A DNA stretch of 64,000 nt, taken from an uncultured Chloroflexia bacterium (lineage in GTDB: Bacteria; Chloroflexota; Anaerolineae; Anaerolineales; Anaerolineaceae). The translations under genes were made by a program, and so were the position numbers. Below are positions 1-53,664 of this stretch, in pieces (within the stretch, counting starts at the first letter, position 1; the number at the start of each line of letters is the position of its first letter). The DNA is taken from NCBI GenBank assembly GCA_963743005.1, contig CAVUNY010000006.1:109976-173975 (forward strand). Direction: 5' to 3'. The notes below the pieces were generated by a model. It did not search any database. It was not told the origin of the DNA and saw only the letters and a program-made list of their open reading frames with translations.

Positions 1-1187
1 ATGACCTGATTTACGCCATTGTCGTCCACTGCCTGCAGCGCTACGGCGAAAGCGAGGTATTGGGCTGGTATTGGGAGTTGTGGAACGAGCCGGACGGCAT
101 GTATTGGAAAGGGACGATCGATGAGTTCAATAAGCTCTATGATTACACCGCCGCCGCGGTCAAGGCGGCTCATCCCCAGGCCCGCGCTGGCGGACCGGCG
201 ACCACCGGCCCAGGTCGCGGCCGCAACGCCGACCATTTTCTCGATCGCTTCCTGGAACACTGCGTTCATGAGACCAATAACCTGACCGGAAAAACCGGCG
301 CCCCGCTGGATTATGTCAGTTTTCACGTCAAGGGCGGCGGCTACCGGGCCGATCCAAAAAATAAGCCGGTCGATCCCCCTTCTACCCAATGGCTCATGCA
401 GCAGGTTGCGACCGGGTATGAGATCATCTCTCGCTACCCCGGCTTAAACCAGTTGGAATGCGTGCTCTCCGAAGCCGACCCCGATGGTTGGGCTGCGGGC
501 GGCGCCTGGGATAACAAGGCCTTGAATTTCCGCAATACCCAGTACTACGCCAGCTATGTGGCCTGCACGTTTGATAAAGTGATCCGCTTTGGGCAGGAAA
601 AAAAGTGGGATGTTCGCCCGCTGACCTGGGCCTTTCTGTTCGTCGCCGAGCGCTGCTTTGAAGGGACGCGCGCCTTCTCCACCCAGGGCATCGATAAAGC
701 GGTCTTCAATCTCTTTAAAATGTATGCCAAAATGGGCACCCAACAGGTCGAATTGACCAGCAGCGGCGCCCAGGATTCACAGGCCTATCCCGATCGTTGG
801 GGTTACGGCGCGCCCCCGGATGTGTCTGGTTTTGCCACCCTGACCGGGGAGAAAAGCCTGGAGGTGCTGGTTTATAACCACCATGATGATTGGAACCGGA
901 CGGGTGACACCCAGGTTGATATTGATTTGGTAAATCTGCCCTTCCAGGGCAAGAAACTGACGCTCAAGCATTACCGCATCGATGCCGCCCACAGCAATGC
1001 CTATTCCGAATGGGTGCGGCAGGGCCAGCCGATGTACCCGGCGGGCGGCCAATACGCTGCCATTAAAGCGCGCGATGGCCTGGAGATGGTGTCTGCCCCA
1101 CAATCGCTGGTGGTAGATGATAGCCACGCAAAGCTGGTGATCACGCTGCCCGTTCACAGCGTTTCATTACTGGTTGTGGAGGGTTAA
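1..1187 (+). CDS. Clan GH-A glycoside hydrolase, GH39-like. It is 5'-truncated at the window edge; the frame starts at nt 3.
   Basis: The frame-3 translation from nt 3 (DLIYAIVVHCLQRYGESEVLGWYWELWNEPD...) is colinear with the downstream paralog. It carries the WNEPD catalytic-type motif and FHVKGGGY. The family assignment is from motif memory, not a search. Confidence 0.6.
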   Translation, partial: DLIYAIVVHCLQRYGESEVLGWYWELWNEPDGMYWKGTIDEFNKLYDYTAAAVKAAHPQARAGGPATTGPGRGRNADHFLDRFLEHCVHETNNLTGKTGAPLDYVSFHVKGGGYRADPKNKPVDPPSTQWLMQQVATGYEIISRYPGLNQLECVLSEADPDGWAAGGAWDNKALNFRNTQYYASYVACTFDKVIRFGQEKKWDVRPLTWAFLFVAERCFEGTRAFSTQGIDKAVFNLFKMYAKMGTQQVELTSSGAQDSQAYPDRWGYGAPPDVSGFATLTGEKSLEVLVYNHHDDWNRTGDTQVDIDLVNLPFQGKKLTLKHYRIDAAHSNAYSEWVRQGQPMYPAGGQYAAIKARDGLEMVSAPQSLVVDDSHAKLVITLPVHSVSLLVVEG

Positions 1188-34035: not shown

Positions 34036-34311
34036 TTATTTACCTGCAGGGGGCGGGAGGCCTCCGCCATGTAAATGGCGGATTTCTTCGGATTCCCTCT
34101 GGTCATCTGTCGTGGTAGAACTGGTCGGGCGGAGCGGTTTCATAGGGGGTTGAGGTTGGGTGTTGAGTTCGGGTTTCCGGAAAGCATCCAGAGTTGCCTG
34201 GCGGGTGAGCGCGTAAACCAGGTATTGGTTTAAGGAAACTCCCTCGTCGCGCGCCAGGATCTCTAATTGCTGGTGAAGTGCTTCCGGAAGCCGTACGGTC
34301 AGCCTGCCCAT
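34036..34311 (-). CDS. Ribbon-helix-helix (CopG/HicB-C-terminal-like) DNA-binding protein, antitoxin-like, with a disordered tail.
   Basis: The N-terminus MGRLTVRLPEALHQQLEILARDEGVSLNQYLVYAL is RHH-like. No partner toxin ORF is present on either side. Confidence 0.55.
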   Translation of the reverse strand: MGRLTVRLPEALHQQLEILARDEGVSLNQYLVYALTRQATLDAFRKPELNTQPQPPMKPLRPTSSTTTDDQRESEEIRHLHGGGLPPPAGK

Positions 34312-34693
34312 CCTCGTCTCCTTGAAAAACAGCTAGCATCGACTTTGAATCATTTAGTCTGTCGAATGTGACGTCAGTATAGCACCGTATATGGTGCAAA
34401 TCATTAAACGGATGACAAGGATTTGTCAATTCGCCTGCGAAGGGCCAACGCATCCCCGCTATCCGCACGACCTAAATCATGAGTGTTTTGAGTGGGCTTT
34501 GTTAAAGTAGAAAAGCTATAGTCTCATGTATCATTATGAAAGGGTGCGTCACGGCGACACATCCTTTCAAATGGGCATATATCCTTGTTCTTCCCAGGTC
34601 CCTGGAGTATAGCTTGTATCTGTCAGGTCCCAAACACCTGCCAGGAGCATAATAATTCCTTGAACACGGTGTGGTGTAATTGCGTACACCCTT

Positions 34694-35203
34694 TTATCTT
34701 CTTTGATAATATCGGCAGCAACCAATGGTTTTAAGTGGATAGACCTGTCTGGTCATGTTCGAAACCAATACATCCATTAGTTGATTGGCAGTTATGAGAT
34801 TTTTTAACAAGGCTAAAAAAATTTCTAACCTTCGGCGATTGCCCACTGATGACAATACTTTTTCGACCATCTGGTTATCGTTCTGGCGAAGCAGATAATC
34901 TGTTTGAACTACAATGGACCGAATAGATTGCATCGTAAATTCGCCTTGCCCTATGGAATAAGTGCCCGCATAGGTAACTGCGCCGCTTTCGCCATTTTCC
35001 TGGGTGTACTTTACCAACTGCGCCAATAGATCGTTAAGCTGATCACGTCCTTCCTGAGCCAATACTCGATTGCTCACTGAAGGAGTCCATGGTTCAACCC
35101 TTGGGAAAATGTTTTTTATTAAGTGCTTCTTGATGCCGCTTAGTTCCTCTTTAATAATTATAGTTTCGGGGACATCTGTCAAGAGGCTCCTGGTCTCTCT
35201 CAT
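34694..35203 (-). CDS. Hypothetical protein (169 aa) in a low-GC islet.
   Basis: It is an ORF with no recognisable motifs; the local GC is clearly below the window average. Confidence 0.4.
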   Translation of the reverse strand: MRETRSLLTDVPETIIIKEELSGIKKHLIKNIFPRVEPWTPSVSNRVLAQEGRDQLNDLLAQLVKYTQENGESGAVTYAGTYSIGQGEFTMQSIRSIVVQTDYLLRQNDNQMVEKVLSSVGNRRRLEIFLALLKNLITANQLMDVLVSNMTRQVYPLKTIGCCRYYQRR

Positions 35204-35302
35204 GAGATTGTTTAAATCGGCTTTAGCCTTATTCTGGCTAACAGATCATTGACCTGTTACATAGATAGGGCCAGGCGCTCACTTCTATTTTAAGTGATTC
35301 GC

Positions 35303-36310
35303 TTACAGTAAGGTCTTTAGAAATGCTACAACTATTATTCCAAGAGATCCGACGGCTATTCCCCATGTGAGCAGGACGCTAGGTACGATTAAAATGATTT
35401 TGTAAAAATTCGACCAGGTTAAAACGGGCTCTTTTTTAAATTCGGCCAAAAACCAGAGGATATAAGGCCAGGCTACCAGAAAAAAACCAAAACTGAAGGA
35501 AATCATTTTTACAAATAAAAGAGTTGCATTGCTGCTTGTCGGCAACACACCGAACAGGATAAAGCCAAAACTAATCAGGCCAATGATCAAAGTCTGCGGG
35601 CGCCAACCCAGTTTTTGAATGGAGAAGAAAGTATCGTTTGAAGAATTATCCGCAAACCATGTCCCTGGAAATTCGTTTACAAATGCGAGTGCCTGTTTTT
35701 TCAGCTTGCCTGGAATATGCAGAGTGATTAGGGGGTAGGGTTCTTCTTCATATCGGATCGTCATCAGGCTGTTTCGTTCACTTACCGTTAAGTTTACCCA
35801 GGCCACTTCGGTTCTTGGAATACGGATACTGTTTCGCGGTTCCCCTTTGTCTGTGCAATCTGCGACGATTAAATCGTTCTTCGTGACAGCATAGAATTTG
35901 TATTTGGTAGAATCCTGATCCAGGCCCAGGACAGCCGTGATAAGGTCTCGGTCTGGACGGATAGCTCTTGCCACCGTTAAAGACACGGCTTGATCTAAAT
36001 GGGCAGCGTTCTTAAAATGCATTGGCAAGGGGCGTGCGAGATTGGCATTGATACTGGTGATCTGGCCTCCTTTTGCCGGATGCTGCCAGACCGCTAAGCC
36101 TGCGCTATAAATCATTTGTCCCAGGTAAAGTATGCAAATCAAATACCAGATGACAAGTGAAGGAATGAGGAAGAAGCCGGTAATCGTCAAAGCCAATCCG
36201 ATCCATACGATTGCGGCTTGCTTGCGTTTCCCAAAAAACCATACAGCCAGCCCCGGAATCATTGAAAAAAAGATGGCAAATGCGGGAGTTTCGAGCCGAT
36301 TTTTGAGCAT
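35303..36310 (-). CDS. Hypothetical polytopic membrane protein (335 aa) in a low-GC islet.
   Basis: It has about 3 TM segments at the N-terminus, a soluble middle domain of about 150 aa, and 3-4 TM segments at the C-terminus. Confidence 0.45.
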   Translation of the reverse strand: MLKNRLETPAFAIFFSMIPGLAVWFFGKRKQAAIVWIGLALTITGFFLIPSLVIWYLICILYLGQMIYSAGLAVWQHPAKGGQITSINANLARPLPMHFKNAAHLDQAVSLTVARAIRPDRDLITAVLGLDQDSTKYKFYAVTKNDLIVADCTDKGEPRNSIRIPRTEVAWVNLTVSERNSLMTIRYEEEPYPLITLHIPGKLKKQALAFVNEFPGTWFADNSSNDTFFSIQKLGWRPQTLIIGLISFGFILFGVLPTSSNATLLFVKMISFSFGFFLVAWPYILWFLAEFKKEPVLTWSNFYKIILIVPSVLLTWGIAVGSLGIIVVAFLKTLL

Positions 36311-45645: not shown

Positions 45646-47566
45646 GCGGGGTTTCAATGATTTATGAGATTTATGCTGTTATAAATGACTCCCCTGCAAA
45701 AAGGAGTAGACAAAAGAGGTAAAAGTTTAATATAATAGGTCAAGCCATTCTACACCATATCCATCCAGGTCGTGAAACATGTTCCGAAAAAACACCCGCC
45801 ATTTACAGCCGGTATTGATCAGCAACGTTCAAGATTTACCTGAAAAACACCGCAAGCGTTTGGAAAACTCATGGGCGGGGGTTTTCTACCGGGAGACCTT
45901 CAGCCGCCTGGATGAGCGGCCCTTTGAGGTGCTGTATGCGGATTGTCCCTCTCGGCCGAATGTACCGGTGAATGTGCTGGTCGGGCTGGAAAGTCTGAAG
46001 GCCGATTTCGGCTGGAGCGATGAAGAGATGTATGATGCCTTTACCTATGACATGCAAGTACGCTACGCGCTGGGGTATCAGCAGTTAGGTGAGGGGGACT
46101 TTGATCTGCGCAGCCTGTATTACTTTCGCGAGCGGGTCAGCCGATATAGGCAGGAGAAGGGGATCAATCTAATCGAGAAAGCTTTTGAGCAAGTGACCGA
46201 CGAGCAGATTCAGGCCTACCAGCTCAAGACGGGCAAACAGCGCACGGACAGCACTCAAATCGCCAGCAACATTCGCGAAATGAGCCGGCTGCAGTTGTTG
46301 GTGGAGGTGATCCAGCGCGTACACCGCATGTTGAAGGAAGAAGACCAGAAAGGCTATGCGGAAGCCTTTGCGCCGTTTATCCTGGGGCATTCCGGGCAAT
46401 ATATCTATCATCTCAAGGGGCAGGACACGAGCGAGCATCTCCAGAAGATCGGGGAATTGATGCAGCGCATCCTGGGCGAACTGCAAAACGCATATAGCCA
46501 AGAGCCGGTCTACCAGATGCTGGAACGGGTGTTTGGCGAGCATTATCGGGTGGATGAGCAGGTCGTGAAAACCAAAGTGGACAAAGAATTGAGCGCCAGC
46601 AGCCTGCAATCGCCCGACGATCTGGAAGCGACCTACCGGGAGAAAGGTCACAAGGCCTACAAGGGTTACGTGGCCAATCTGACCGAGACGTGTGACCCGG
46701 AAAATAAGCTGCAATTGATCACCAAAACCGCGGTGGCGCCCAATAGTGTCGATGATGCCAAACTGATGGAAGAGGATGTAGCTAACTTGAAAGAGCGCAC
46801 CGACCTGAAAACGCTCTATACAGATGGCGGCTACGGCAGTCCCGACGCGGACCAGACCCTGCGGGATCACAAAGTGGAACAAATCCAAACCGCGATCCGC
46901 GGTCGGGTGCCAAGCAGCGAAAAACTCAACCTGGCGGATTTTGAAATCCAGCAGGCCGAGAGTGGCAAGCCCACCCAGATCACCTGCCCGCAGGGACAGA
47001 AGGTAGCGGTTCACCCCAGCAGCCAGAAAAAAGGGTATGTGGCTCATTTTGACCTGCCTATCTGCCAGACCTGTCCGTTCTTCCAGACGAGTTGTCCGGC
47101 CCAACCTGGAAAACGCGACCCGAGGTTACGCCTGAACTTTAGTGAAGCTCAGGCAAATGTGTCGCAGCGCAGACGACGCAGTCTGGCTTGTCTGCAAGAA
47201 GGACGAAACTTACGGGCGGCCGTTGAAGCAACAGTGCGGGAAGTCAAACACCCCTTCCCGGCCAGCAAGTTGCCCGTGAGAGGCCGATTTCGGATAGCCT
47301 GTATAGTCGCCGGTTCAGCCCTGGTCACCAATGCGCACCGCATCCAACGCTACCTGGTCGCCAAAATAAAGTTGGAAAATGAGCAAAAGAAGGCCCAAAC
47401 AGAGCAGGAATGCGCCCAAGATGGGCATGCGGTTGTGTTTTTTGCTTCGCTGAAAGCGGTTTTTGAGGCCGGACTAGCCCTTTTGGGATGGCGGAAGCGA
47501 AGTTTCAGTTTTTAATGTTCGAGTTCTTGCAGTGGAGTCATAAATGAATGAAGATTTATAAATCAT
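45646..47566 (+). mobile_element. Insertion sequence (about 1.9 kb) with imperfect roughly 40 bp terminal inverted repeats and a single DDE transposase gene. Size and N-terminal domain suggest IS1182/IS5-like.
   Basis: IRL 45646-45687 pairs with IRR 47528-47566: the outer 10 bp AATGATTTAT/ATAAATCATT are perfect, and the inner block …ATGACTCCCCTGC / GCAGTGGAGTCAT is conserved. Confidence 0.65.
45779..47515 (+). CDS. DDE transposase (578 aa) with an InsH-N/DUF772-like N-terminus.
   Basis: The N-terminus …LPEKHRKRLENSWAGVFYRE… is typical of IS1182/IS5-group transposases, with a C-terminal Cys cluster. Family assignment is from memory only. Confidence 0.65.
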   Translation: MFRKNTRHLQPVLISNVQDLPEKHRKRLENSWAGVFYRETFSRLDERPFEVLYADCPSRPNVPVNVLVGLESLKADFGWSDEEMYDAFTYDMQVRYALGYQQLGEGDFDLRSLYYFRERVSRYRQEKGINLIEKAFEQVTDEQIQAYQLKTGKQRTDSTQIASNIREMSRLQLLVEVIQRVHRMLKEEDQKGYAEAFAPFILGHSGQYIYHLKGQDTSEHLQKIGELMQRILGELQNAYSQEPVYQMLERVFGEHYRVDEQVVKTKVDKELSASSLQSPDDLEATYREKGHKAYKGYVANLTETCDPENKLQLITKTAVAPNSVDDAKLMEEDVANLKERTDLKTLYTDGGYGSPDADQTLRDHKVEQIQTAIRGRVPSSEKLNLADFEIQQAESGKPTQITCPQGQKVAVHPSSQKKGYVAHFDLPICQTCPFFQTSCPAQPGKRDPRLRLNFSEAQANVSQRRRRSLACLQEGRNLRAAVEATVREVKHPFPASKLPVRGRFRIACIVAGSALVTNAHRIQRYLVAKIKLENEQKKAQTEQECAQDGHAVVFFASLKAVFEAGLALLGWRKRSFSF

Positions 47567-48848: not shown

Positions 48849-50297
48849 TCACATTGGCAAAGAACCGACAGCCAATTTAATATTTTCGACAACTGCACCA
48901 ACATCTGAGGTCATAGGAACCGCAGTAAGAACAATTTCTATATTGCGCCCATTCGCAGGCAATGAGGCGTGCTGATAAAGCCTTCCGCGACGCTTAAGCG
49001 ATTCCCAAGTCTGGTTCTGACAGGGGTAAATGAGACAAGCAACAACCCGTTGAGATGAATTCAAAGACGAATATGCTAAAACTTGCAGCAAATCCTGTCG
49101 GTGCTGTTCTTGGATTTCCTTCTCGATTTGTCCCCAATTGGTTGAATTAAATTCTTCCCAATGGCGTTTATATTTGGCGTCAAAAATAATGGTTACATCA
49201 TCACGCTCTAAAATTACATCGGGTAAAAGATATTTTTGCGTTCCAATAAAGGGGTTGTCCCAATGGATCGGAGTAAGAGTTTCTCTCTTTCTGCCCGTTC
49301 GTAAAACACCCCCTGTGTCTCTGGCTAAACGGGTAACCAATGTTTCAACCCATGCTTCAAAAAATGTATCCATCGGAAGAACCCAAGGCAACCCTTGCAA
49401 ATCTGCCAATCCTGCTAATCCACGGTCTTCTACTGTCCATTCAACTGCTTGAATCCCTTCACGAAAAGCTTCAATTCTCATTGAGCCAGTTAACCAAGCC
49501 TGAAGCATCTCGGAAGACGGCCTTTGCGGAGGGACAGCGGCCACATGCCTGATCAAAGATTGGCAAAAATCTATTAAAGAAAGTACAGCTCCGGTTAAAT
49601 TGCGCTGACTTTCCAGTCCAGCTAATAGTTTCCGCAAAGTAAAATGTACGGCGGCTCTTAGCGTGCGATCATCCCGCAAATCGGGATATTGACATGATAT
49701 TTGCAGAAATTGAGCATTCGGGATTTTCCTTGTTGCGTAATCAGACCAATCCACTGTACCCTTTGGCGCTGGTTGAATGGTTTGAATTAACTCAAACCGC
49801 CGTTCTAATTGATCCAGTAATGTGCGAACACGGATCAGGACAATGGATGAAAGAACCCAGGGGGGAACTTTTCTTTCGGTACCGGGGATTAAGGGTAATT
49901 TCAAAAGAGTGGGCGTAATCCGCCAGCCCATTTGCGCCAACATACTTCCTATTCCTGCCCATTCAAAGCGTGGTTTTATCACCATACCATATTCTGGTCT
50001 ACCGCTGGTAGGTGCAAGTAATGGAAATGCCCCGGCCTTAATTCCAGTTTTTAGCACTAACCAAATATTTTGGCCATCGTAATCCTGTGAAGCCTGAACA
50101 TCAAAGTTGTTTAGAATTCCCCTATTTTGGTCAATAAATTGATTCGCAAGTCTGGCTGCCATAGCTTGCGGATCACGTGGCAAATCACCGCGGATAAAAC
50201 GCGTTGCATTTAACCTTTGCTCACCCGAATCGACGCATTCAAAGATTAGTGGGTTGGTCTTTATTAGAATTGGAGAGGTTAAAGACTTTTTAGCCAT
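48849..50297 (-). CDS. mcrC: McrC-like nuclease subunit of a type IV (modification-dependent) restriction system.
   Basis: A C-terminal PD-(D/E)xK is present (PDVILERDDVTIIFDAKYK). It is paired and overlapping with the McrB-like gene in a low-GC region. Confidence 0.7.
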   Translation of the reverse strand: MAKKSLTSPILIKTNPLIFECVDSGEQRLNATRFIRGDLPRDPQAMAARLANQFIDQNRGILNNFDVQASQDYDGQNIWLVLKTGIKAGAFPLLAPTSGRPEYGMVIKPRFEWAGIGSMLAQMGWRITPTLLKLPLIPGTERKVPPWVLSSIVLIRVRTLLDQLERRFELIQTIQPAPKGTVDWSDYATRKIPNAQFLQISCQYPDLRDDRTLRAAVHFTLRKLLAGLESQRNLTGAVLSLIDFCQSLIRHVAAVPPQRPSSEMLQAWLTGSMRIEAFREGIQAVEWTVEDRGLAGLADLQGLPWVLPMDTFFEAWVETLVTRLARDTGGVLRTGRKRETLTPIHWDNPFIGTQKYLLPDVILERDDVTIIFDAKYKRHWEEFNSTNWGQIEKEIQEQHRQDLLQVLAYSSLNSSQRVVACLIYPCQNQTWESLKRRGRLYQHASLPANGRNIEIVLTAVPMTSDVGAVVENIKLAVGSLPM

Positions 50298-51745
50298 TGC
50301 ATATAAGCGAGGATATGTTCTGAAAATCCCGACACATACCCCTGGGCCAAATATTCTTCCAGAAGAGGATACAAGGTTGTTTGCAAAACCTGGATTGCAC
50401 GGTCTTGGTCTTTTTCGAGAAAATACGCATGACCCGGCATTAAATTGAGGGCATCATCACTGGCGTATTCAATAAATATCGACAAAAGTTCTTGAAATGC
50501 TTGCTGCATTAAAGAACACGCGAGTCTTTGAACTACCTCTGTTTGGGGCCATAGTTTTATAAAAGCAAACCGTCTTCGAATCGCAACATCCAAGATGGCA
50601 ATGCTGCGGTCTGAACTATTCATGGTTCCCAGAATGTGGAGATTGGTAGGAAGCCAAAGTTCACTACCAATCGGATCGTTAAAATCATGAGCGAGGCTCA
50701 CTTGCCGCTTTCCGTTATCTTGCGCTTCAAAAAGAAAGATGGCTTCGCCAAGTACCTTTGCTAGATCTGCTCGATTGATTTCATCAATATGTAAGAGATA
50801 GTCTTTTTGAGGTTCCTTCAACGCTTCAACGACTGCTTCAAGCAAATAACCGCGTTTCGGCTTAAAACTAAAACCCAAACCACTGCTGGATTCGGTGGGC
50901 GATAATCCACCAACAAAATTTTCATAGGTTGTGTTCGGGTGAAATTGGATCGATTTGCCATTCCCCTGATATCGTTTGGCCAACAGGTCAAGCGCCAGCA
51001 TGGTTTTACCAGTCCCAGGGGGACCCTCCAAAACCACATATCGGCGGTTCTTTAAGATCGTTTCGATTTCAATTCTTGAAGTACCTGGCAAGAGTGATTC
51101 AAAATATTTACTCCGAATCTGTTCGGCTTCTTTCTCAAAACGAGATAATGGCATAAATCCACGTTCAGAAAACATGAGATCCAGGAAAGCGGGAACCGCT
51201 TTGAGAGTCGCATCTGGATGATCCACTGGAGGGCAAAAAATACCATATAGAACCTTACCGTACCGGGAAAATACTGACTGATAAGGAGCAAAGTTGCGTT
51301 TTACGTGTTCTGGCATGTCAAGATCAACTCGGGCAGGGTCCTGTTTTGCCCAGGCTACCAGTTTCCCTTTACCATATTCTTTGTTTAGCCAATTACAGAT
51401 CGCTGCAGTTTTTCGTGCATGACCTGGACGGCTCAAAATATTTTCGTCAGGGCTCAATCCTTGTGTCCCAATGACCATTGCAACCAGACAGGGTGCTCCC
51501 TCAACAGGAAAAATAACAAAGCTCATTCCACCATACGCACCTGAGTCGGGATTGGCTGGGTGAATATAAGCCGCAAAACTGACTCCATCTCCTGTGGACA
51601 TTTTCGGAGCCCTGAGTTTAACAAACTCTTTTGCTCGACTGGGATAACGTCCATCCTGAGTTCCAAACAATTCTTCGAAAGCTTGCTGGTTACTTCCTGT
51701 CCAATCCAAAGGGGAAGATTGAATAATTTCAATTAGTTTCTTCAT
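50279..51745 (-). CDS. mcrB: McrB-family AAA+ GTPase subunit with an unassigned roughly 190 aa N-terminal domain.
   Basis: Walker A LEGPPGTGKT, Walker B LLHIDEINRAD, and the McrB-signature MNSSDRSIAILDVAIRRRF are present. The N-terminal domain was not recognised. Confidence 0.8.
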   Translation of the reverse strand: MKKLIEIIQSSPLDWTGSNQQAFEELFGTQDGRYPSRAKEFVKLRAPKMSTGDGVSFAAYIHPANPDSGAYGGMSFVIFPVEGAPCLVAMVIGTQGLSPDENILSRPGHARKTAAICNWLNKEYGKGKLVAWAKQDPARVDLDMPEHVKRNFAPYQSVFSRYGKVLYGIFCPPVDHPDATLKAVPAFLDLMFSERGFMPLSRFEKEAEQIRSKYFESLLPGTSRIEIETILKNRRYVVLEGPPGTGKTMLALDLLAKRYQGNGKSIQFHPNTTYENFVGGLSPTESSSGLGFSFKPKRGYLLEAVVEALKEPQKDYLLHIDEINRADLAKVLGEAIFLFEAQDNGKRQVSLAHDFNDPIGSELWLPTNLHILGTMNSSDRSIAILDVAIRRRFAFIKLWPQTEVVQRLACSLMQQAFQELLSIFIEYASDDALNLMPGHAYFLEKDQDRAIQVLQTTLYPLLEEYLAQGYVSGFSEHILAYMQWLKSL

Positions 51746-51975: not shown

Positions 51976-52446
51976 ATGGCGACTCTGCATTTGATGGTGG
52001 GACTGCCCTGTTCGGGGAAAACAACCCTGGCGCGCAGGCTTGAGATCGAGCGCGCGGCGCTGCGCCTGACGCCGGATGAATGGCAGCTGCGCCTCTTCGG
52101 CCAGGACGCGGAGGCGCCGGAACATGACACCCGGCACAGCATGATCGAAGCCATGCTGTGGGATATCGCCGCCCGGGCGCTGGTTTTGGGCACGAACGTG
52201 ATCCTGGATTACGGCTTCTGGGCGCGCGAAGAGCGCGAAGACTTCCGCTCGCGGGCGCGGGAACTGGGCGCGAGCAGCGAAATCCATTTTCTGGATACGC
52301 CGGAAGATGAGCTGCTGCTGCGGCTCGCGGCGCGCAATGCACAGCCGGAGCCGGGAGCTTTTCATATCCCCGCGGAGAGCATGCTGCCCTGGATCGCGTT
52401 TTTCCAGCGGCCGGGGCCGGATGAACTGGGGCGCAGAGAGGTTTGA
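51976..52446 (+). CDS. P-loop NTPase (AAA_33/zeta-toxin-like predicted kinase).
   Basis: The P-loop is GLPCSGKTTLARRL; the protein is 156 aa. Confidence 0.6.
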   Translation: MATLHLMVGLPCSGKTTLARRLEIERAALRLTPDEWQLRLFGQDAEAPEHDTRHSMIEAMLWDIAARALVLGTNVILDYGFWAREEREDFRSRARELGASSEIHFLDTPEDELLLRLAARNAQPEPGAFHIPAESMLPWIAFFQRPGPDELGRREV

Positions 52447-52500
52447 ACCGGTCTGGCGGCGATGATATAAATGGTGCGCGGAGCTCACCCTACCAGACTG

Positions 52501-52571
52501 CTGGCGGTCGTGGATTCGAACCACGCTTAAGAGGTCCAAGGCCTCTTGTCCTGCCGCTAGACCAACCGCCA
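52501..52571 (-). tRNA. tRNA-Gln (anticodon UUG), U1:A72. The anticodon loop reads CCUUGGA, so position 33 is C.
   Basis: Manual fold: acceptor UGGCGGU/ACCGCCA, T-arm CGUGG-UUCGAAU-CCACG, anticodon stem AGAGG/CCUCU. Confidence 0.7.
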
Positions 52572-52589
52572 ATATGGAACAATTTCGAG

Positions 52590-52660
52590 CTGGCGGTCGT
52601 GGATTCGAACCACGATTACAAAGTCCAGAGCTTCGTGTCCTGCCGTTAGACCAACCGCCA
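52590..52660 (-). tRNA. tRNA-Gln (anticodon CUG), U1:A72; anticodon loop CUCUGGA.
   Basis: It has the same body as the neighbouring tRNA-Gln, differing in the anticodon stem-loop and variable region. Confidence 0.75.
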
Positions 52661-52895
52661 ATAAAAAAACGGGATGCCTGATGGGCATCCCGGATGAGGT
52701 GTGTGAAAAAGAGCCTTTTGCGCTCTAACTTCCAGACAGCTCAACCTGCCCACAACCGGTGCCGGTTTGGGTGCGCTGAGACTGCTGCTGGAAGAAGGTA
52801 TTCATGATCAATATTTTAGGCCATTATTGGTTTTTGTCAATCCCATTTCTGACAAAATACCACACCCGATGAGCATGGTAATTTATTCCCCGGGG

Positions 52896-52919
52896 AAAAA
52901 AAGGTGCGCGGTGCGCACC
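52896..52919 (-). terminator. Rho-independent terminator of the AhpD-like gene: hairpin GGUGCGC-cg-GUGCGCACC followed by U7 on the minus strand.
   Basis: It reads as a minus-strand hairpin followed by a TTTTTTT run. Confidence 0.65.
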
Positions 52920-52953
52920 CAAAATTACCAGGTCTTAAAGGCCGCGCGGCCGT

Positions 52954-53538
52954 TCAGCCTGTTTTCTGCCAGTCCTTCAGGTAGGCCCACAGCTCTAGTT
53001 CCTGCTGCTGGAGCTCCAGGTCGGGGGGAACGCCCAACGAGTCGAAGAAGCGGCTGATGAAGTTGCGGGCGACGGCTGTCAGCGCCACGTCCGTGATCTG
53101 TTGGGGGCTCAGCCCATCCTGGCGCAGCTGGTCGAGATCCGCCGGGGCAACCCCGCCAGGTTCGCCGCTGATCTTGCTGGCATAGTCCATCATGTGCACT
53201 TCCACGGAGCTGAGGCCGGCCTGGTGGTAATCCGCGAGGATGGCGATGATTTGTTGGGCGGTAAAGCCATTTTTACGGAGCACCGCTCCGTGAGCCAGCA
53301 TTCAGTACACGCAGCCGATCGCCCGGGATGCGGCCAGGGTCACCAATTCGAAGTCGCGCAGGCGCTGGTGTGAGCGGATCGTCTTGAGCATCTGGCGGAA
53401 AGGACCCGCCAGCTCGGGCCGGTAGCTCCAAACACGGCTGATATTGCTGATGTAGCCGACTTTTTCCAGATCCTGGTCGTACAGTTCGCACAGTACTCCC
53501 TCTGCATTTTCGTCAGAAACCGGTGGAACGTACCACAT
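52954..53538 (-). CDS. Candidate selenoprotein: AhpD/carboxymuconolactone-decarboxylase-family peroxidase-like protein with an in-frame UGA (Sec) at 53302-53304, replacing the second Cys of the CxxCxxxH motif.
   Basis: Two adjacent same-frame ORFs (78 aa and 115 aa) are separated only by TGA. The junction reads …AIGCVY-[TGA]-MLAHG…, which is C-V-Y-U-M-L-A-H against the AhpD catalytic C-x-x-C-x-x-x-H. The ATG immediately follows the TGA, and a SECIS-like hairpin starts 11 nt downstream. Confidence 0.6.
53275..53291 (-). promoter_or_regulatory. SECIS-like stem-loop (mRNA ACGGAG-CGGUG-CUCCGU) 11 nt 3' of the in-frame UGA.
   Basis: The hairpin is read on the minus strand and has a GG-containing apical loop. 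Its position relative to the UGA matches the E. coli fdhF SECIS. Confidence 0.5.
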
Positions 53539-53664
53539 AACCGACCTCCCGCACGAAATTATTTTGTAATATGATCAATTTTATCATCATCTCGGTCGGC
53601 AGTCCAATCCGCGATGGTGAAAACGGAGTGCGTTGGGAAACGTCTCTTGCTGCCAGCGGATATA

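What the first reader, a model, noticed from the sequence alone, without database searches (positions are those of the whole stretch)
52954..53538. Candidate selenoprotein: AhpD/CMD-family gene with UGA replacing the second catalytic Cys, plus a SECIS-like hairpin
The ORF track splits this gene into a 78 aa and a 115 aa ORF in the same frame, separated only by TGA at 53302-53304. Read through, the junction is AIGCVY-U-MLAHG. That places the stop exactly on the second Cys of the AhpD catalytic CxxCxxxH motif, giving C-V-Y-U-M-L-A-H. A hairpin ACGGAG-CGGUG-CUCCGU begins 11 nt after the UGA, the same offset as bacterial SECIS elements such as E. coli fdhF. The gene has its own terminator at 52896-52919. 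AhpD-like proteins are a known but rare bacterial selenoprotein family, and automated pipelines routinely miss them. It would also imply selenocysteine-insertion machinery in this genome.
Basis: partly seen in the sequence, partly recalled or inferred. Interest (0 to 1): 0.85.

Follow-up and report, generated by a model that had tools for sequence, protein, structure and literature searches.

The report
AhpD-like selenoprotein gene split by UGA
The two short ORFs are one 194-codon AhpD-like redox enzyme gene whose in-frame UGA almost certainly encodes selenocysteine at the catalytic cysteine position; the gene is real and missed by gene callers, but it belongs to a selenoprotein family known since 2005.

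Summary
Window 52954-53538 (-) is one 194-codon CMD/AhpD-like gene interrupted only by TGA at 53302-53304.

- In more than 70 full-length homologs this codon aligns with the second Cys of an invariant E-x11-C-x-Y-C-x3-H motif.
- The same TGA is present in 24 independent assemblies that are 40-97% identical to each other. All have an ATG 77-79 codons upstream.
- dN/dS is 0.1-0.2 on both sides of the TGA.
- 30 of the 120 best database homologs are gene-caller truncations that start at the codon after this TGA.
- Ten nt after the UGA lies a 7-bp hairpin with a GGU triloop. It meets all four published bacterial SECIS criteria and sits within 1 nt of the E. coli fdhF spacing.
- The hairpin is kept in every Sec form (92% of pair cells, one compensatory C-G to U-A change, one re-registered stem). 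It decays in Cys forms (69%).
- TGA is an ordinary stop elsewhere in the window, including for this gene.

Not shown: selA, selB, selC and selD. They are absent from the 64 kb, and the rest of the genome is out of reach.

The family (AhpD-like, TIGR01926/COG2128, CxxU) is an established selenoprotein family. This is a correct call and a new member of a known kind, of modest interest.

The parts
52954..53538 (-). Complete read-through coding sequence of the AhpD-like (CMD family) selenoprotein: 194 codons plus its own TGA stop at 52956-52954.
   Evidence: Translation. Pfam CMD PF02627, E 5e-14. TIGR01926 peroxid_rel 81.6 bits over profile positions 2-176 of 178. Full-length homologs are 57-74% identical. 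PDB 6k40 E 1.6e-14 over residues 6-177.
53302..53304 (-). In-frame UGA, codon 79: the predicted selenocysteine, replacing the second Cys of C76-V-Y-U79-M-L-A-H83.
   Evidence: Aligns with an invariant Cys in the homologs. The same TGA is present in 24 loci.
53275..53291 (-). SECIS-like hairpin inside the coding sequence (codons 83-88, H-G-A-V-L-R): 7-bp stem ACGGAGC/GCUCCGU with a GGU triloop, 10 nt after the UGA.
   Evidence: dG -10.7 kcal/mol. RNAalifold consensus. In 16 distinct Sec-form sequences 92% of cells are paired, against 69% in 20 Cys forms. Codons +4 to +8 were invariant at synonymous sites in the first 13 distinct Sec forms, apart from one CUC to CUU change that keeps a G.U pair; the sequences added later brought pair-preserving or re-registered variants. 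All bSECIS criteria are met.
53292..53301 (-). 10-nt spacer between the UGA and the hairpin (codons M80-L81-A82 and the first base of H83); free to vary at synonymous sites.
   Evidence: E. coli fdhF has an 11-nt spacer.
53311..53313 (-). Cys76 codon (TGC), the predicted resolving partner of Sec79 (CxxU motif).
   Evidence: Invariant in Sec and Cys forms of this clade. Lost (SxxC) only in distant actinobacterial homologs.
53347..53349 (-). Glu64 codon. Together with Tyr78 and His83 (53290-53292) it forms the proton-relay set described for AhpD-like enzymes.
   Evidence: E64, Y78 and H83 are invariant in 32 homologs. The spacing is identical to PA0269 (E36-C48-Y50-C51-H55) and to M. tuberculosis AhpD (E118-C130-H132-C133-H137) (PMC3141380).
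53536..53550 (-). Start codon ATG (53538-53536) preceded by the Shine-Dalgarno sequence GGGAGG (53550-53545).
   Evidence: Read directly from the sequence. All Sec-form homologs with complete 5' sequence have an ATG 77-79 codons upstream of the TGA.
53558..53606 (-). Two overlapping sigma-70-like promoter matches in the intergenic region shared with the divergent GNAT gene (weak evidence).
   Evidence: Consensus scan, 9 of 12 matches each.
52892..52920 (-). Intrinsic terminator: stem-loop GGGTGCGCACCGCGCACCT followed by a T-run, 34 nt after the stop codon. The gene is monocistronic.
   Evidence: Terminator scan.

Best explanation
Window 52954-53538 (-) is a single monocistronic gene for a 194-residue AhpD-like 'peroxidase-related' enzyme of the carboxymuconolactone-decarboxylase (CMD) superfamily. 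Codon 79 is UGA and is decoded as selenocysteine.

Decoding. The UGA is recoded co-translationally because the mRNA forms a short SECIS hairpin 10 nt downstream (7-bp stem, GGU triloop). By analogy with E. coli fdhF, this hairpin recruits SelB carrying Sec-tRNA(Sec) to the ribosome. The identical codon at the end of the gene has no such hairpin and terminates translation.

Function. The product has the active-site string E64...C76-V-Y78-U79-M-L-A-H83. Sec79 occupies the position of the Cys that is kept even in homologs that have lost the other Cys.

- Shown here: gene integrity, the Sec/Cys correspondence, conservation of the UGA and of the hairpin, and the AhpD-like fold.
- Inferred: Sec79 is the nucleophile. 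Its selenolate would attack a peroxide or an oxidised partner protein. The resulting selenenic acid or mixed selenenylsulfide would be resolved by Cys76 into an intramolecular Se-S bond, which an unidentified thiol reductant then reduces. The overall role would be a peroxide or redox-stress defence enzyme.
For: 1. One gene. Both halves match one domain and one family profile end to end. All complete Sec forms have an ATG 77-79 codons upstream, in frame. dN/dS is 0.12-0.21 upstream and 0.09-0.23 downstream of the TGA, while dS reaches about 1 or more.

2. Sec/Cys pair. The TGA aligns with an invariant Cys. Sec and Cys forms are interspersed in a neighbour-joining tree.

3. Recurrence. There are 24 TGA-bearing loci, 40-97% identical, from JGI, ENA, Logan and NCBI assemblies, including five GTDB species-representative MAGs labelled Chloroflexia or Anaerolineales. 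30 of the 120 best protein hits begin exactly at M80.

4. SECIS.
- It meets all four bSECIS model constraints: loop of 3-9 nt, stem of 4-16 bp, G in the first two loop positions followed by G or U, 16-37 nt from UGA to the loop, and MFE of -7.5 kcal/mol or lower (PMC13188914).
- The loop GGU lies at +21..23, against +22..24 in E. coli fdhF.
- In Sec forms 92% of pair cells are standard pairs, reached by only 2 of 500 shuffles. Changes include a C-G to U-A double change (L054), G.U-compatible changes (L015, L054, L055) and a re-registered 7-bp stem where the peptide changes to HGEVLT (L051). In Cys forms 69% of cells pair, which is no better than shuffles.

5. TGA is a normal stop here. It ends 16 of 49 long ORFs in the window and this gene itself.

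6. Fold and active site. An AlphaFold model of the 73%-identical Cys homolog P0001 has pLDDT 93 and TM 0.82 to DR1765 (6k40). A DR1765 deletion mutant is H2O2-sensitive, and complementation depends on the CxxC motif (PMC8945050). The relay residues are invariant. Distant homologs are SxxC or TxxC and keep only the Cys at the Sec position.

7. Precedent. AhpD-like CxxU selenoproteins (COG2128/TIGR01926) are an established family (PMC1088965, PMC2398784, PMC13188914). Sec use, tRNA-Sec and Sec-type enzymes are reported in Chloroflexi/Chloroflexota (PMC5389517, PMC13582414, PMC13326102).
Against: - No selA, selB, selD or tRNA-Sec lies in the window or in the related loci held, so the decoding machinery of this organism is unverified.
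- No selenium incorporation data exist.
- The hairpin is short and almost invariant, so covariation support rests on a few sequences.
- 8 of 20 distinct Cys forms also keep the inner five pairs. Part of the hairpin is therefore a by-product of the conserved H-G-A-V-L-R peptide and codon usage.
- One Sec form (L052/L053) has only a 5-bp stem, dG -7.3 kcal/mol.
- The TIGR01926 score (81.6) is 0.2 bit below the curated cutoff.
- The substrate, the reductant and the assignment of Sec79 as nucleophile are inferred.
Confidence: 0.87

Rival explanations
1. The UGA is recoded through the same SECIS-type hairpin, but cysteine rather than selenocysteine is inserted. The carrier would be a tRNA-Sec-like tRNA-Cys (selC*/tRNAReC) delivered by SelB or a SelB paralog.
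For: Such tRNAs are reported to decode UGA as Cys when a SECIS lies downstream. Authors of recent selenoproteome work state that bioinformatics cannot distinguish the two outcomes (PMC13582414; PMC5389517). Every sequence feature found here is equally compatible with this reading.
Against: In the papers read, tRNAReC is reported in Deltaproteobacteria/Desulfobacterota, Armatimonadota, JAPLJL01 and possibly Nitrospirae, not in Chloroflexota. No such tRNA lies in the window or the loci. Keeping a costly UGA plus SECIS for the same residue that TGC encodes has no obvious benefit, whereas many sister lineages simply use TGC.
Confidence: 0.04
2. The TGA is a true stop. The locus is a pseudogene or a sequencing or assembly error of a TGC/TGT codon.
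For: Gene callers treat it as a stop and split the gene. TGA differs from TGC and TGT by one base.
Against: The same TGA is found in 24 assemblies from different projects and technologies. Purifying selection acts on both halves, with dN/dS of 0.1-0.2 at dS up to about 1 or more. There are no other stops or frameshifts. The start codon, Shine-Dalgarno sequence and terminator are intact.
Confidence: 0.02
3. The locus is a split gene. Translation ends at the TGA and restarts at the overlapping ATG (TGAATG), giving a 78-aa and a 115-aa polypeptide that assemble into an AhpD-like protein without the second active-site residue.
For: An ATG immediately follows the TGA in the window and in most Sec forms. 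Gene callers predict exactly these two products.
Against: In three divergent Sec forms (L014, L015, L016) the next codon is CTG, not a usual start. There is no Shine-Dalgarno sequence before the internal ATG. M80 is the conserved Met/Leu of the CxxC-[ML]-LAH motif in the Cys forms as well. The split would delete the one residue that is kept in all homologs. It also does not explain the Sec-form-specific conservation of the hairpin.
Confidence: 0.02
4. SECIS-independent read-through occurs: a near-cognate tRNA inserts Trp, Cys or Arg at UGA, or the lineage has a reassigned UGA codon.
For: Low-level UGA read-through occurs in bacteria (general knowledge).
Against: TGA ends 16 of 49 long ORFs in the window, including this gene, so it is not reassigned. 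Trp or Arg at an invariant catalytic Cys position would inactivate the enzyme. It does not explain the conserved hairpin at the fdhF-like distance.
Confidence: 0.02

Closest known systems
AhpD-like selenoprotein family (COG2128 / TIGR01926 'peroxidase-related enzyme', CxxU motif), first described in the Sargasso Sea and GOS selenoproteomes
   Same: - The best family model is the same, TIGR01926, matched end to end.
- The CMD domain is the same.
- The Sec position is the same: the second residue of CxxC, giving CxxU.
- Cys-containing homologs are widespread.
- The bSECIS lies directly downstream of the UGA.
   Different: - The score is 0.2 bit under the curated cutoff. The clade straddles it, at 76.6-95.8 bits.
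- This clade comes from terrestrial MAGs (peat, fen, soil) labelled Chloroflexia or Anaerolineales, not from marine plankton.
- Whether these exact sequences are already in BSepDB could not be checked.
E. coli fdhF SECIS (formate dehydrogenase H, Sec140)
   Same: Both have a 17-nt stem-loop placed 10-11 nt after the UGA, inside the coding sequence, with GGU exposed at the tip. The GGU lies at +21..23 here and at +22..24 in fdhF.
   Different: - The stem here is perfect, 7 bp with a triloop. In the fold computed here the fdhF upper stem has one unpaired U.
- No conserved lower stem is seen.
- The sequences are unrelated.
- SelB binding has not been tested.
DR1765, the AhpD-like protein of Deinococcus radiodurans (PDB 6k40), and the structural-genomics relatives 2oyo, 2prr, 3c1l and 2pfx
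   Same: - They are the closest solved structures by sequence (E 1.6e-14) and by fold (TM 0.82, rmsd 2.2 A, for the model of the 73%-identical Cys homolog).
- The motif C-V-Y-C-x-x-x-H-G-A is the same.
- DR1765 contributes to H2O2 tolerance in a CxxC-dependent way (PMC8945050).
   Different: They share about 27% identity and contain Cys, not Sec. Their substrate and reductant are also unknown.
Mycobacterium tuberculosis AhpD (TIGR00777), the lipoamide-dependent reductant of AhpC
   Same: The CMD fold core and the relay spacing E-x11-C-x-[HY]-C-x3-H are shared (PMC3141380).
   Different: - TIGR00777 scores 24.4 bits against a cutoff of 192.
- Foldseek TM is only about 0.5.
- The position of His132 is occupied by Tyr.
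- There is no ahpC neighbour: the neighbours are a GNAT gene, tRNA-Gln genes and an AAA_33 kinase gene.
- It is therefore not an AhpC-coupled AhpD in the strict sense.
selC*/tRNAReC system (UGA decoded as Cys with a SECIS)
   Same: It would use the same cis elements, an in-frame UGA plus a downstream SECIS.
   Different: It needs a dedicated tRNA that is not reported for this phylum in the papers read. Nothing here points to it.

Membership tests
Bacterial selenoprotein gene (Sec-UGA plus bSECIS) | The in-frame UGA aligns with Cys in homologs (Sec/Cys pair). | tested here: met
   All full-length homologs carry Cys at the aligned position.
Bacterial selenoprotein gene (Sec-UGA plus bSECIS) | Sequence on both sides of the UGA is coding, in one frame, and under purifying selection. 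| tested here: met
   dN/dS is 0.09-0.23 on both sides. An ATG lies 77-79 codons upstream in all complete Sec forms. One domain and one profile span the UGA.
Bacterial selenoprotein gene (Sec-UGA plus bSECIS) | The UGA is conserved in orthologs from independent genomes. | tested here: met
   24 loci that are 40-97% identical, from JGI, ENA, Logan and NCBI.
Bacterial selenoprotein gene (Sec-UGA plus bSECIS) | bSECIS model: apical loop of 3-9 nt, upper stem of 4-16 bp, G in the first two loop positions, 16-37 nt between UGA and loop, MFE of -7.5 kcal/mol or lower. | tested here: met
   The criteria come from PMC13188914. Here the loop is GGU (or C-GGU-G), the stem is 7 bp, 16-17 nt separate the UGA from the loop, and dG is -10.7 kcal/mol. 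The bSECISearch program itself was not available.
Bacterial selenoprotein gene (Sec-UGA plus bSECIS) | The hairpin is maintained by selection specifically where the UGA is present. | tested here: met
   Sec forms have 92% of cells paired (2 of 500 shuffles reach this), with 2 pairs changed on both sides. Cys forms have 68.6% paired (487 of 500 shuffles reach this). Fisher p = 4e-4 on distinct sequences, not corrected for phylogeny.
Bacterial selenoprotein gene (Sec-UGA plus bSECIS) | selA, selB, selC (tRNA-Sec) and selD are present in the same genome. | not testable with these tools
   None lies in the 64-kb window or in the related loci.
Bacterial selenoprotein gene (Sec-UGA plus bSECIS) | Selenium is actually incorporated at the UGA. 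| not testable with these tools
   This needs 75Se labelling or mass spectrometry.
AhpD-like 'peroxidase-related enzyme' subfamily (NCBIfam TIGR01926) | Score at or above the curated cutoff of 81.8 bits. | tested here: inconclusive
   81.6 bits with U replaced by C, over profile positions 2-176 of 178. Close homologs score 76.6-95.8 bits, so the clade straddles the cutoff.
AhpD-like 'peroxidase-related enzyme' subfamily (NCBIfam TIGR01926) | CMD/AhpD core domain carrying the CxxC(U)xxxH motif and the upstream Glu. | tested here: met
   PF02627 52.4 bits against a cutoff of 23; TIGR00778 37.9 bits against 27.8. E64, C76, Y78, C/U79 and H83 are invariant.
AhpD-like 'peroxidase-related enzyme' subfamily (NCBIfam TIGR01926) | All-helical AhpD-like fold. 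| tested here: met
   The model of the 73%-identical Cys homolog P0001 has pLDDT 93.4 and 11 helices. TM to 6k40, 2oyo, 2prr and 3c1l is 0.77-0.82. The window's own read-through sequence could not be submitted.
AhpD-like 'peroxidase-related enzyme' subfamily (NCBIfam TIGR01926) | Peroxidase or thiol-reductase activity. | not testable with these tools
   The only support is by analogy with DR1765 (PMC8945050).
Canonical AhpD (TIGR00777; partner of AhpC) | Family score at or above the cutoff, and an ahpC partner gene. | tested here: not met
   24.4 bits against a cutoff of 191.95. The neighbours are a GNAT gene, a radical-SAM gene, tRNA-Gln genes and an AAA_33 gene, and no peroxiredoxin gene.
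Other AhpD-related selenoprotein models (NF041238 AhpD_rel_CFYUT; NF053654 GroundWater_YciW) | Family score at or above the cutoff. | tested here: not met
   27.1 bits against 175, and 18.6 bits against 310.

The most novel reading that the evidence does not exclude
The active-site helix of this AhpD-like clade may be 'SECIS-ready'. The conserved peptide H-G-A-V-L-R, in its commonest codons, already spells a correctly placed SECIS hairpin: 8 of 20 distinct Cys forms keep its inner five pairs. If so, a single TGC to TGA change would be enough to make a selenoprotein. That would explain why Sec and Cys forms are interspersed in the tree, and why AhpD-like proteins are among the families most often found as selenoproteins. 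The alternative, and equally open, direction is that Sec is ancestral in the clade and the hairpins in the Cys forms are decaying fossils.
Probability: 0.25. Interest if true: 0.5.

Novelty: new member of a known kind. Interest (0 to 1): 0.3.

Why it matters
- Annotation. One real 194-residue redox enzyme is currently called as two hypothetical ORFs of 78 and 115 aa, here and in dozens of public assemblies. 30 of the 120 best database hits are such truncations.
- Biology of the organism. The gene implies that this organism, whose closest relatives are MAGs labelled Chloroflexia or Anaerolineales from peat, fen and soil, carries a working selenocysteine system and needs selenium.
- Material for study. 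It provides a compact, well-conserved SECIS (17 nt) with natural variants, and a set of closely interleaved Sec/Cys orthologs that could be used to study how Sec and Cys interconvert.
- Limits. It does not change what is known about selenoproteins: the family, the motif and the mechanism are established.

Tried and rejected
- Sec machinery. tblastn with E. coli SelA, SelB and SelD against the window and loci L001-L018 gave only two weak GTPase-domain hits in L004 and L015. ARAGORN (window and L001-L050) and Rfam (window and eight long Sec-form loci) found no tRNA-Sec.
- The window's own 115-aa ORF is not on record in the contig index, so the source record was not identified.
- Rfam at permissive E-values over 52850-53650 gave only noise and no SECIS-family match. 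No general bacterial SECIS family appears to exist in Rfam (my own knowledge).
- The long-range alternative fold of the 56-nt segment (GCGGUG pairing with UACCGC) was rejected. Its 3' arm is not conserved in L013, L014, L016 or L024.
- A lower stem that includes the UGA is not recovered by RNAalifold.
- A screen for other selenoprotein genes in the window found nothing credible besides this gene. It used same-frame ORF pairs across TGA and a lineage-specific UGA-plus-hairpin pattern. A hit in L014 at 12493 is an off-frame ORF opposite a real gene.
- BSepDB supplementary tables are not held, so prior listing of these exact genes could not be checked.
Full report
**Observation**

On the minus strand an ATG at 53538-53536, preceded by GGGAGG 6 nt upstream, opens a frame that runs to a TGA stop at 52956-52954. 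The only interruption is TGA at 53304-53302. Mechanical ORF listing therefore gives a 78-aa ORF (53302-53538) and a 115-aa ORF (52954-53301) in the same frame. The junction reads A-I-G-C-V-Y-*-M-L-A-H-G.

ViennaRNA closes one more C-G pair, giving a 7-bp stem ACGGAGC/GCUCCGU with a GGU triloop and dG -10.7 kcal/mol. A stem-loop plus T-run terminator is at 52920-52892. Every sequence statement in the finding is correct.

**What the protein is**

With Cys put in place of the stop, the 194-residue product was scored against the family libraries.
- Pfam CMD (PF02627): E 5e-14.
- NCBIfam TIGR01926 'peroxidase-related enzyme': matched almost end to end (profile 2-176 of 178) at 81.6 bits. The curated cutoff is 81.8.
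- Close Cys-containing homologs score 76.6-95.8 bits, so the clade sits on the edge of that model.
- Canonical AhpD (TIGR00777: 24.4 bits against 192) and two other AhpD-related selenoprotein models (NF041238, NF053654) are clearly not met.

The closest solved structure by sequence is 6k40, the AhpD-like protein DR1765 of Deinococcus radiodurans (E 1.6e-14). The CVYC...HGA strings align. An AlphaFold model of the 73%-identical Cys homolog P0001 is confident (pLDDT 93.4, all helical). It superposes on 6k40, 2oyo, 2prr and 3c1l with TM about 0.8.

In 32 full-length homologs down to 42% identity, E64, C76, Y78, C79 and H83 are invariant. The spacing E-x11-C-x-Y-C-x3-H equals the proton-relay set described for P. 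aeruginosa PA0269 (E36, C48, Y50, C51, H55). It also corresponds to M. tuberculosis AhpD (E118, C130, H132, C133, H137) (PMC3141380).

**The TGA sits on the second Cys**

All 74 full-length top hits have C-x-x-C-[ML]-[LMQ]-[AS]-H, with the second Cys at the position of the TGA. 30 of the 120 best hits are proteins of 114-155 aa (mostly 114-117) that all begin M-L-A-H-G. This is the same truncation that the ORF track made here, produced by gene callers in many other assemblies.

**The TGA is conserved, and the gene is under selection on both sides**

DNA was recovered for 52 homologous loci from three sources: GTDB species genomes, JGI metagenomes and the contig index.
- 24 loci carry TGA at this codon and 28 carry TGC or TGT.
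- The TGA forms are 40-97% identical to each other at protein level. In a neighbour-joining tree they are interspersed with Cys forms.
- They come from different projects and sequencing technologies. They include five species-representative MAGs, four labelled uncultured Chloroflexia and one labelled only 'bacterium', and an NCBI Anaerolineaceae MAG.
- All complete TGA forms have an ATG 77-79 codons upstream, in frame.
- Nei-Gojobori estimates between the window and eight TGA forms give dN/dS of 0.12-0.21 for the 78 upstream codons and 0.09-0.23 downstream, with dS up to about 1 or more.

An error, a pseudogene, or a gene that really starts at M80 would not produce this pattern.

**UGA is not reassigned**

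TGA ends 16 of 49 long ORFs in the window, and it ends this gene itself. The same codon must therefore be read in two ways within one mRNA, which calls for a local signal.

**The hairpin as that signal**

The published bacterial SECIS model asks for four things (PMC13188914):
- an apical loop of 3-9 nt on an upper stem of 4-16 bp;
- a G in one of the first two loop positions, usually followed by G or U;
- 16-37 nt between the UGA and the loop;
- MFE of -7.5 kcal/mol or lower.

The element here has a GGU loop (or C-GGU-G), a 7-bp stem, 16-17 nt of spacing and dG -10.7 kcal/mol. I extracted E. coli fdhF for a direct comparison. There, UGA at codon 140 is followed by 11 nt and a 17-nt stem-loop with GGU at +22..24. 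In the window the figures are 10 nt, 17 nt and +21..23.

By itself the hairpin is not statistically striking. In a 56-nt context the z-score is -0.87 and another fold is preferred. That alternative fold, and a possible lower stem, are not conserved. The comparative pattern carries the weight.
- Codon level. In the first 13 distinct Sec-form sequences the codons for H-G-A-V-L (+4 to +8) were invariant at their synonymous sites (CAC GGA GCG GUG CUC), apart from one CUC to CUU change that keeps a G.U pair. The flanking codons vary freely. In the 22 distinct Cys forms those same codons vary (CAC/CAU 16:6; GGA/GGC/GGG 13:6:3; CUC/CUU/CUG 11:3:8) and the amino acids change too.
- Added sequences. 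Further Sec forms brought informative variants.
  - L054 changes pair 15-29 from C-G to U-A on both sides, and A-U to G.U at pair 18-26.
  - L055 and L015 carry G.U-compatible changes.
  - L051, whose peptide is H-G-E-V-L-T, has a different sequence that still makes a 7-bp stem, UGGUGAG-GUU-CUCACCA, shifted by one nucleotide.
  - L052/L053 keep only five pairs (dG -7.3 kcal/mol).
- Formal count. In Sec forms 92% of cells are paired, two pairs are changed on both sides, and 2 of 500 shuffles reach this. In Cys forms 68.6% of cells are paired and 487 of 500 shuffles reach it.

A caveat applies. 8 of 20 distinct Cys forms still have the inner five pairs. Part of the hairpin therefore follows from the conserved peptide and codon usage, or is a remnant of a former SECIS. 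A recent study of Sec-type hydrogenases noted the same thing in Cys-type relatives (PMC13582414).

**What could not be shown**

No selA, selB or selD lies in the window or in loci L001-L018 (tblastn with the E. coli proteins). No tRNA-Sec was found by ARAGORN in the window and L001-L050, or by Rfam in the window and eight long Sec-form loci. The rest of the genome is out of reach, and the window's own ORF is not in the contig index.

The literature reports tRNA-Sec in Chloroflexi, some with an unusual 8/4 structure (PMC5389517). It also reports Sec-type enzymes and large selenoproteomes in Chloroflexota (PMC13582414, PMC13326102). The trait therefore exists in the phylum, but that is not a test of this genome. 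A screen of the window for other selenoprotein genes found none.

**Mechanism**

Shown:
- one gene;
- a Sec/Cys pair at the invariant second residue of the CxxC motif;
- a conserved SECIS-type hairpin;
- an AhpD-like fold with an intact relay set.

Inferred:
- SelB with Sec-tRNA(Sec) binds the hairpin and decodes UGA79.
- Sec79 is the attacking residue. Distant homologs of SxxC or TxxC type keep only this position.
- Cys76 resolves the oxidised selenium into a Se-S bond, which an unknown thiol system reduces.
- The cellular role is peroxide or redox defence. This rests on analogy with DR1765, whose loss sensitises D. radiodurans to H2O2 in a CxxC-dependent manner (PMC8945050).
- A Ni-superoxide dismutase gene lies 40 nt upstream of one Sec-form ortholog (L058), which fits that theme.

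There is no conserved partner gene. In the window the gene is monocistronic. It lies between a divergent GNAT gene and two tRNA-Gln genes.

**Rivals**

- Cys insertion at UGA by a tRNA-Sec-like tRNA-Cys (tRNAReC) with the same SECIS cannot be excluded from sequence. It is unreported for this phylum in the papers read and has no support here.
- Pseudogene or sequencing error, a split gene with restart at the overlapping ATG, and SECIS-independent read-through are each contradicted. The relevant evidence is the recurrence of the TGA, the selection on both halves, the CTG that follows the TGA in three lineages, the normal use of TGA as a stop, and the Sec-specific conservation of the hairpin.

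**Comparison with what is known, and novelty**

AhpD-like proteins with a CxxU motif (COG2128) were among the new selenoprotein families of the Sargasso Sea study, with 27 sequences (PMC1088965). They were the fourth most abundant family in GOS, with 299 sequences against 902 Cys homologs (PMC2398784). A 2026 review lists 'AhpD-like protein, TIGR01926, CxxU' (PMC13188914).

The gene here is therefore a new member of a known kind. The value lies in annotation, in the inference of Sec use in this lineage, and in a compact SECIS with natural variants.

The least ordinary reading that the data allow is that the active-site helix is 'SECIS-ready', so that Sec and Cys forms interconvert by single mutations. 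Alternatively, the hairpins in the Cys forms are fossils of a Sec ancestor. Deciding between these needs a proper phylogeny.

Noticed in passing
window 48849-51745 (-): A low-GC island (GC 0.42-0.46 against 0.52-0.66 around it; GC3 0.37-0.38) encodes a McrBC-family protein and an AAA_5 (McrB-like) ATPase, which looks like an acquired restriction system. It lies just beyond the AAA_33 kinase gene (51976-52446) that flanks the two tRNA-Gln genes (52500-52660). It is absent from the syntenic place in the 97%-identical contig L001.
   Followed up: partly
window 45779-47515 (+): A 578-aa DDE transposase (DDE_Tnp_1 / DDE_Tnp_1_6) lies about 1.3 kb from the McrBC island, with an alpha/beta-hydrolase gene between them.
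   Followed up: no
window 34103-36310 (-): Three consecutive ORFs (121, 169 and 335 aa) have low GC3 (0.44-0.48) and no Pfam match, possibly another foreign segment.
   Followed up: no
L002, L004, L037, L046 (Cys-form homologs), codons +4 to +9 after the TGC/TGT: Some Cys-containing orthologs keep an intact SECIS-like hairpin (ACGGAGC-GGU-GCUCCG and near variants) at the same place. These are either fossil SECIS elements after a Sec-to-Cys change or a latent SECIS encoded by the conserved HGAVLR peptide.
   Followed up: partly
L058 220-1309: A Ni-superoxide dismutase gene (PF09055) lies 40 nt upstream of a Sec-form AhpD-like gene on the same strand, which hints at an oxidative-stress operon in that organism.
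   Followed up: no
L017 (Leifsonia sp. C5G2), L018, L048, L049: Distant homologs, actinobacterial in L017 and L018, have SxxC or TxxC instead of CxxC. Only the residue at the Sec position is kept, which suggests it is the essential catalytic one.
   Followed up: partly
L002 10001-10576 (CAVWCJ010000002.1): The N-terminal part of this Cys-form ortholog is interrupted. Only 56 codons are open upstream of the CxxC, and the database protein P0077 is 137 aa. This may be a frameshift, a pseudogene or a long-read assembly error.
   Followed up: no
L014 12127-12213 (+): ARAGORN calls an 87-nt 'tRNA-Thr(CGU)' that lies inside a 287-aa ORF on the opposite strand. Rfam does not report it, so it is probably a false positive.
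   Followed up: partly
Model m05d394e4f5cc (homolog P0001): The thiol-dependent debrominase Bmp8 (6ohi/6ohj) is among the structural relatives (TM 0.75, 18% identity). This is a reminder that CMD-fold CxxC enzymes are not all peroxidases.
   Followed up: no
L001 4378-6579: The 97%-identical relative contig carries a MerR/resolvase gene followed by a Cas12f1-like TNB-domain (PF07282, TnpB-type) gene, resembling an IS607-type element (my reading). This is about 3 kb from the AhpD-like gene. The window has no counterpart at that place.
   Followed up: no
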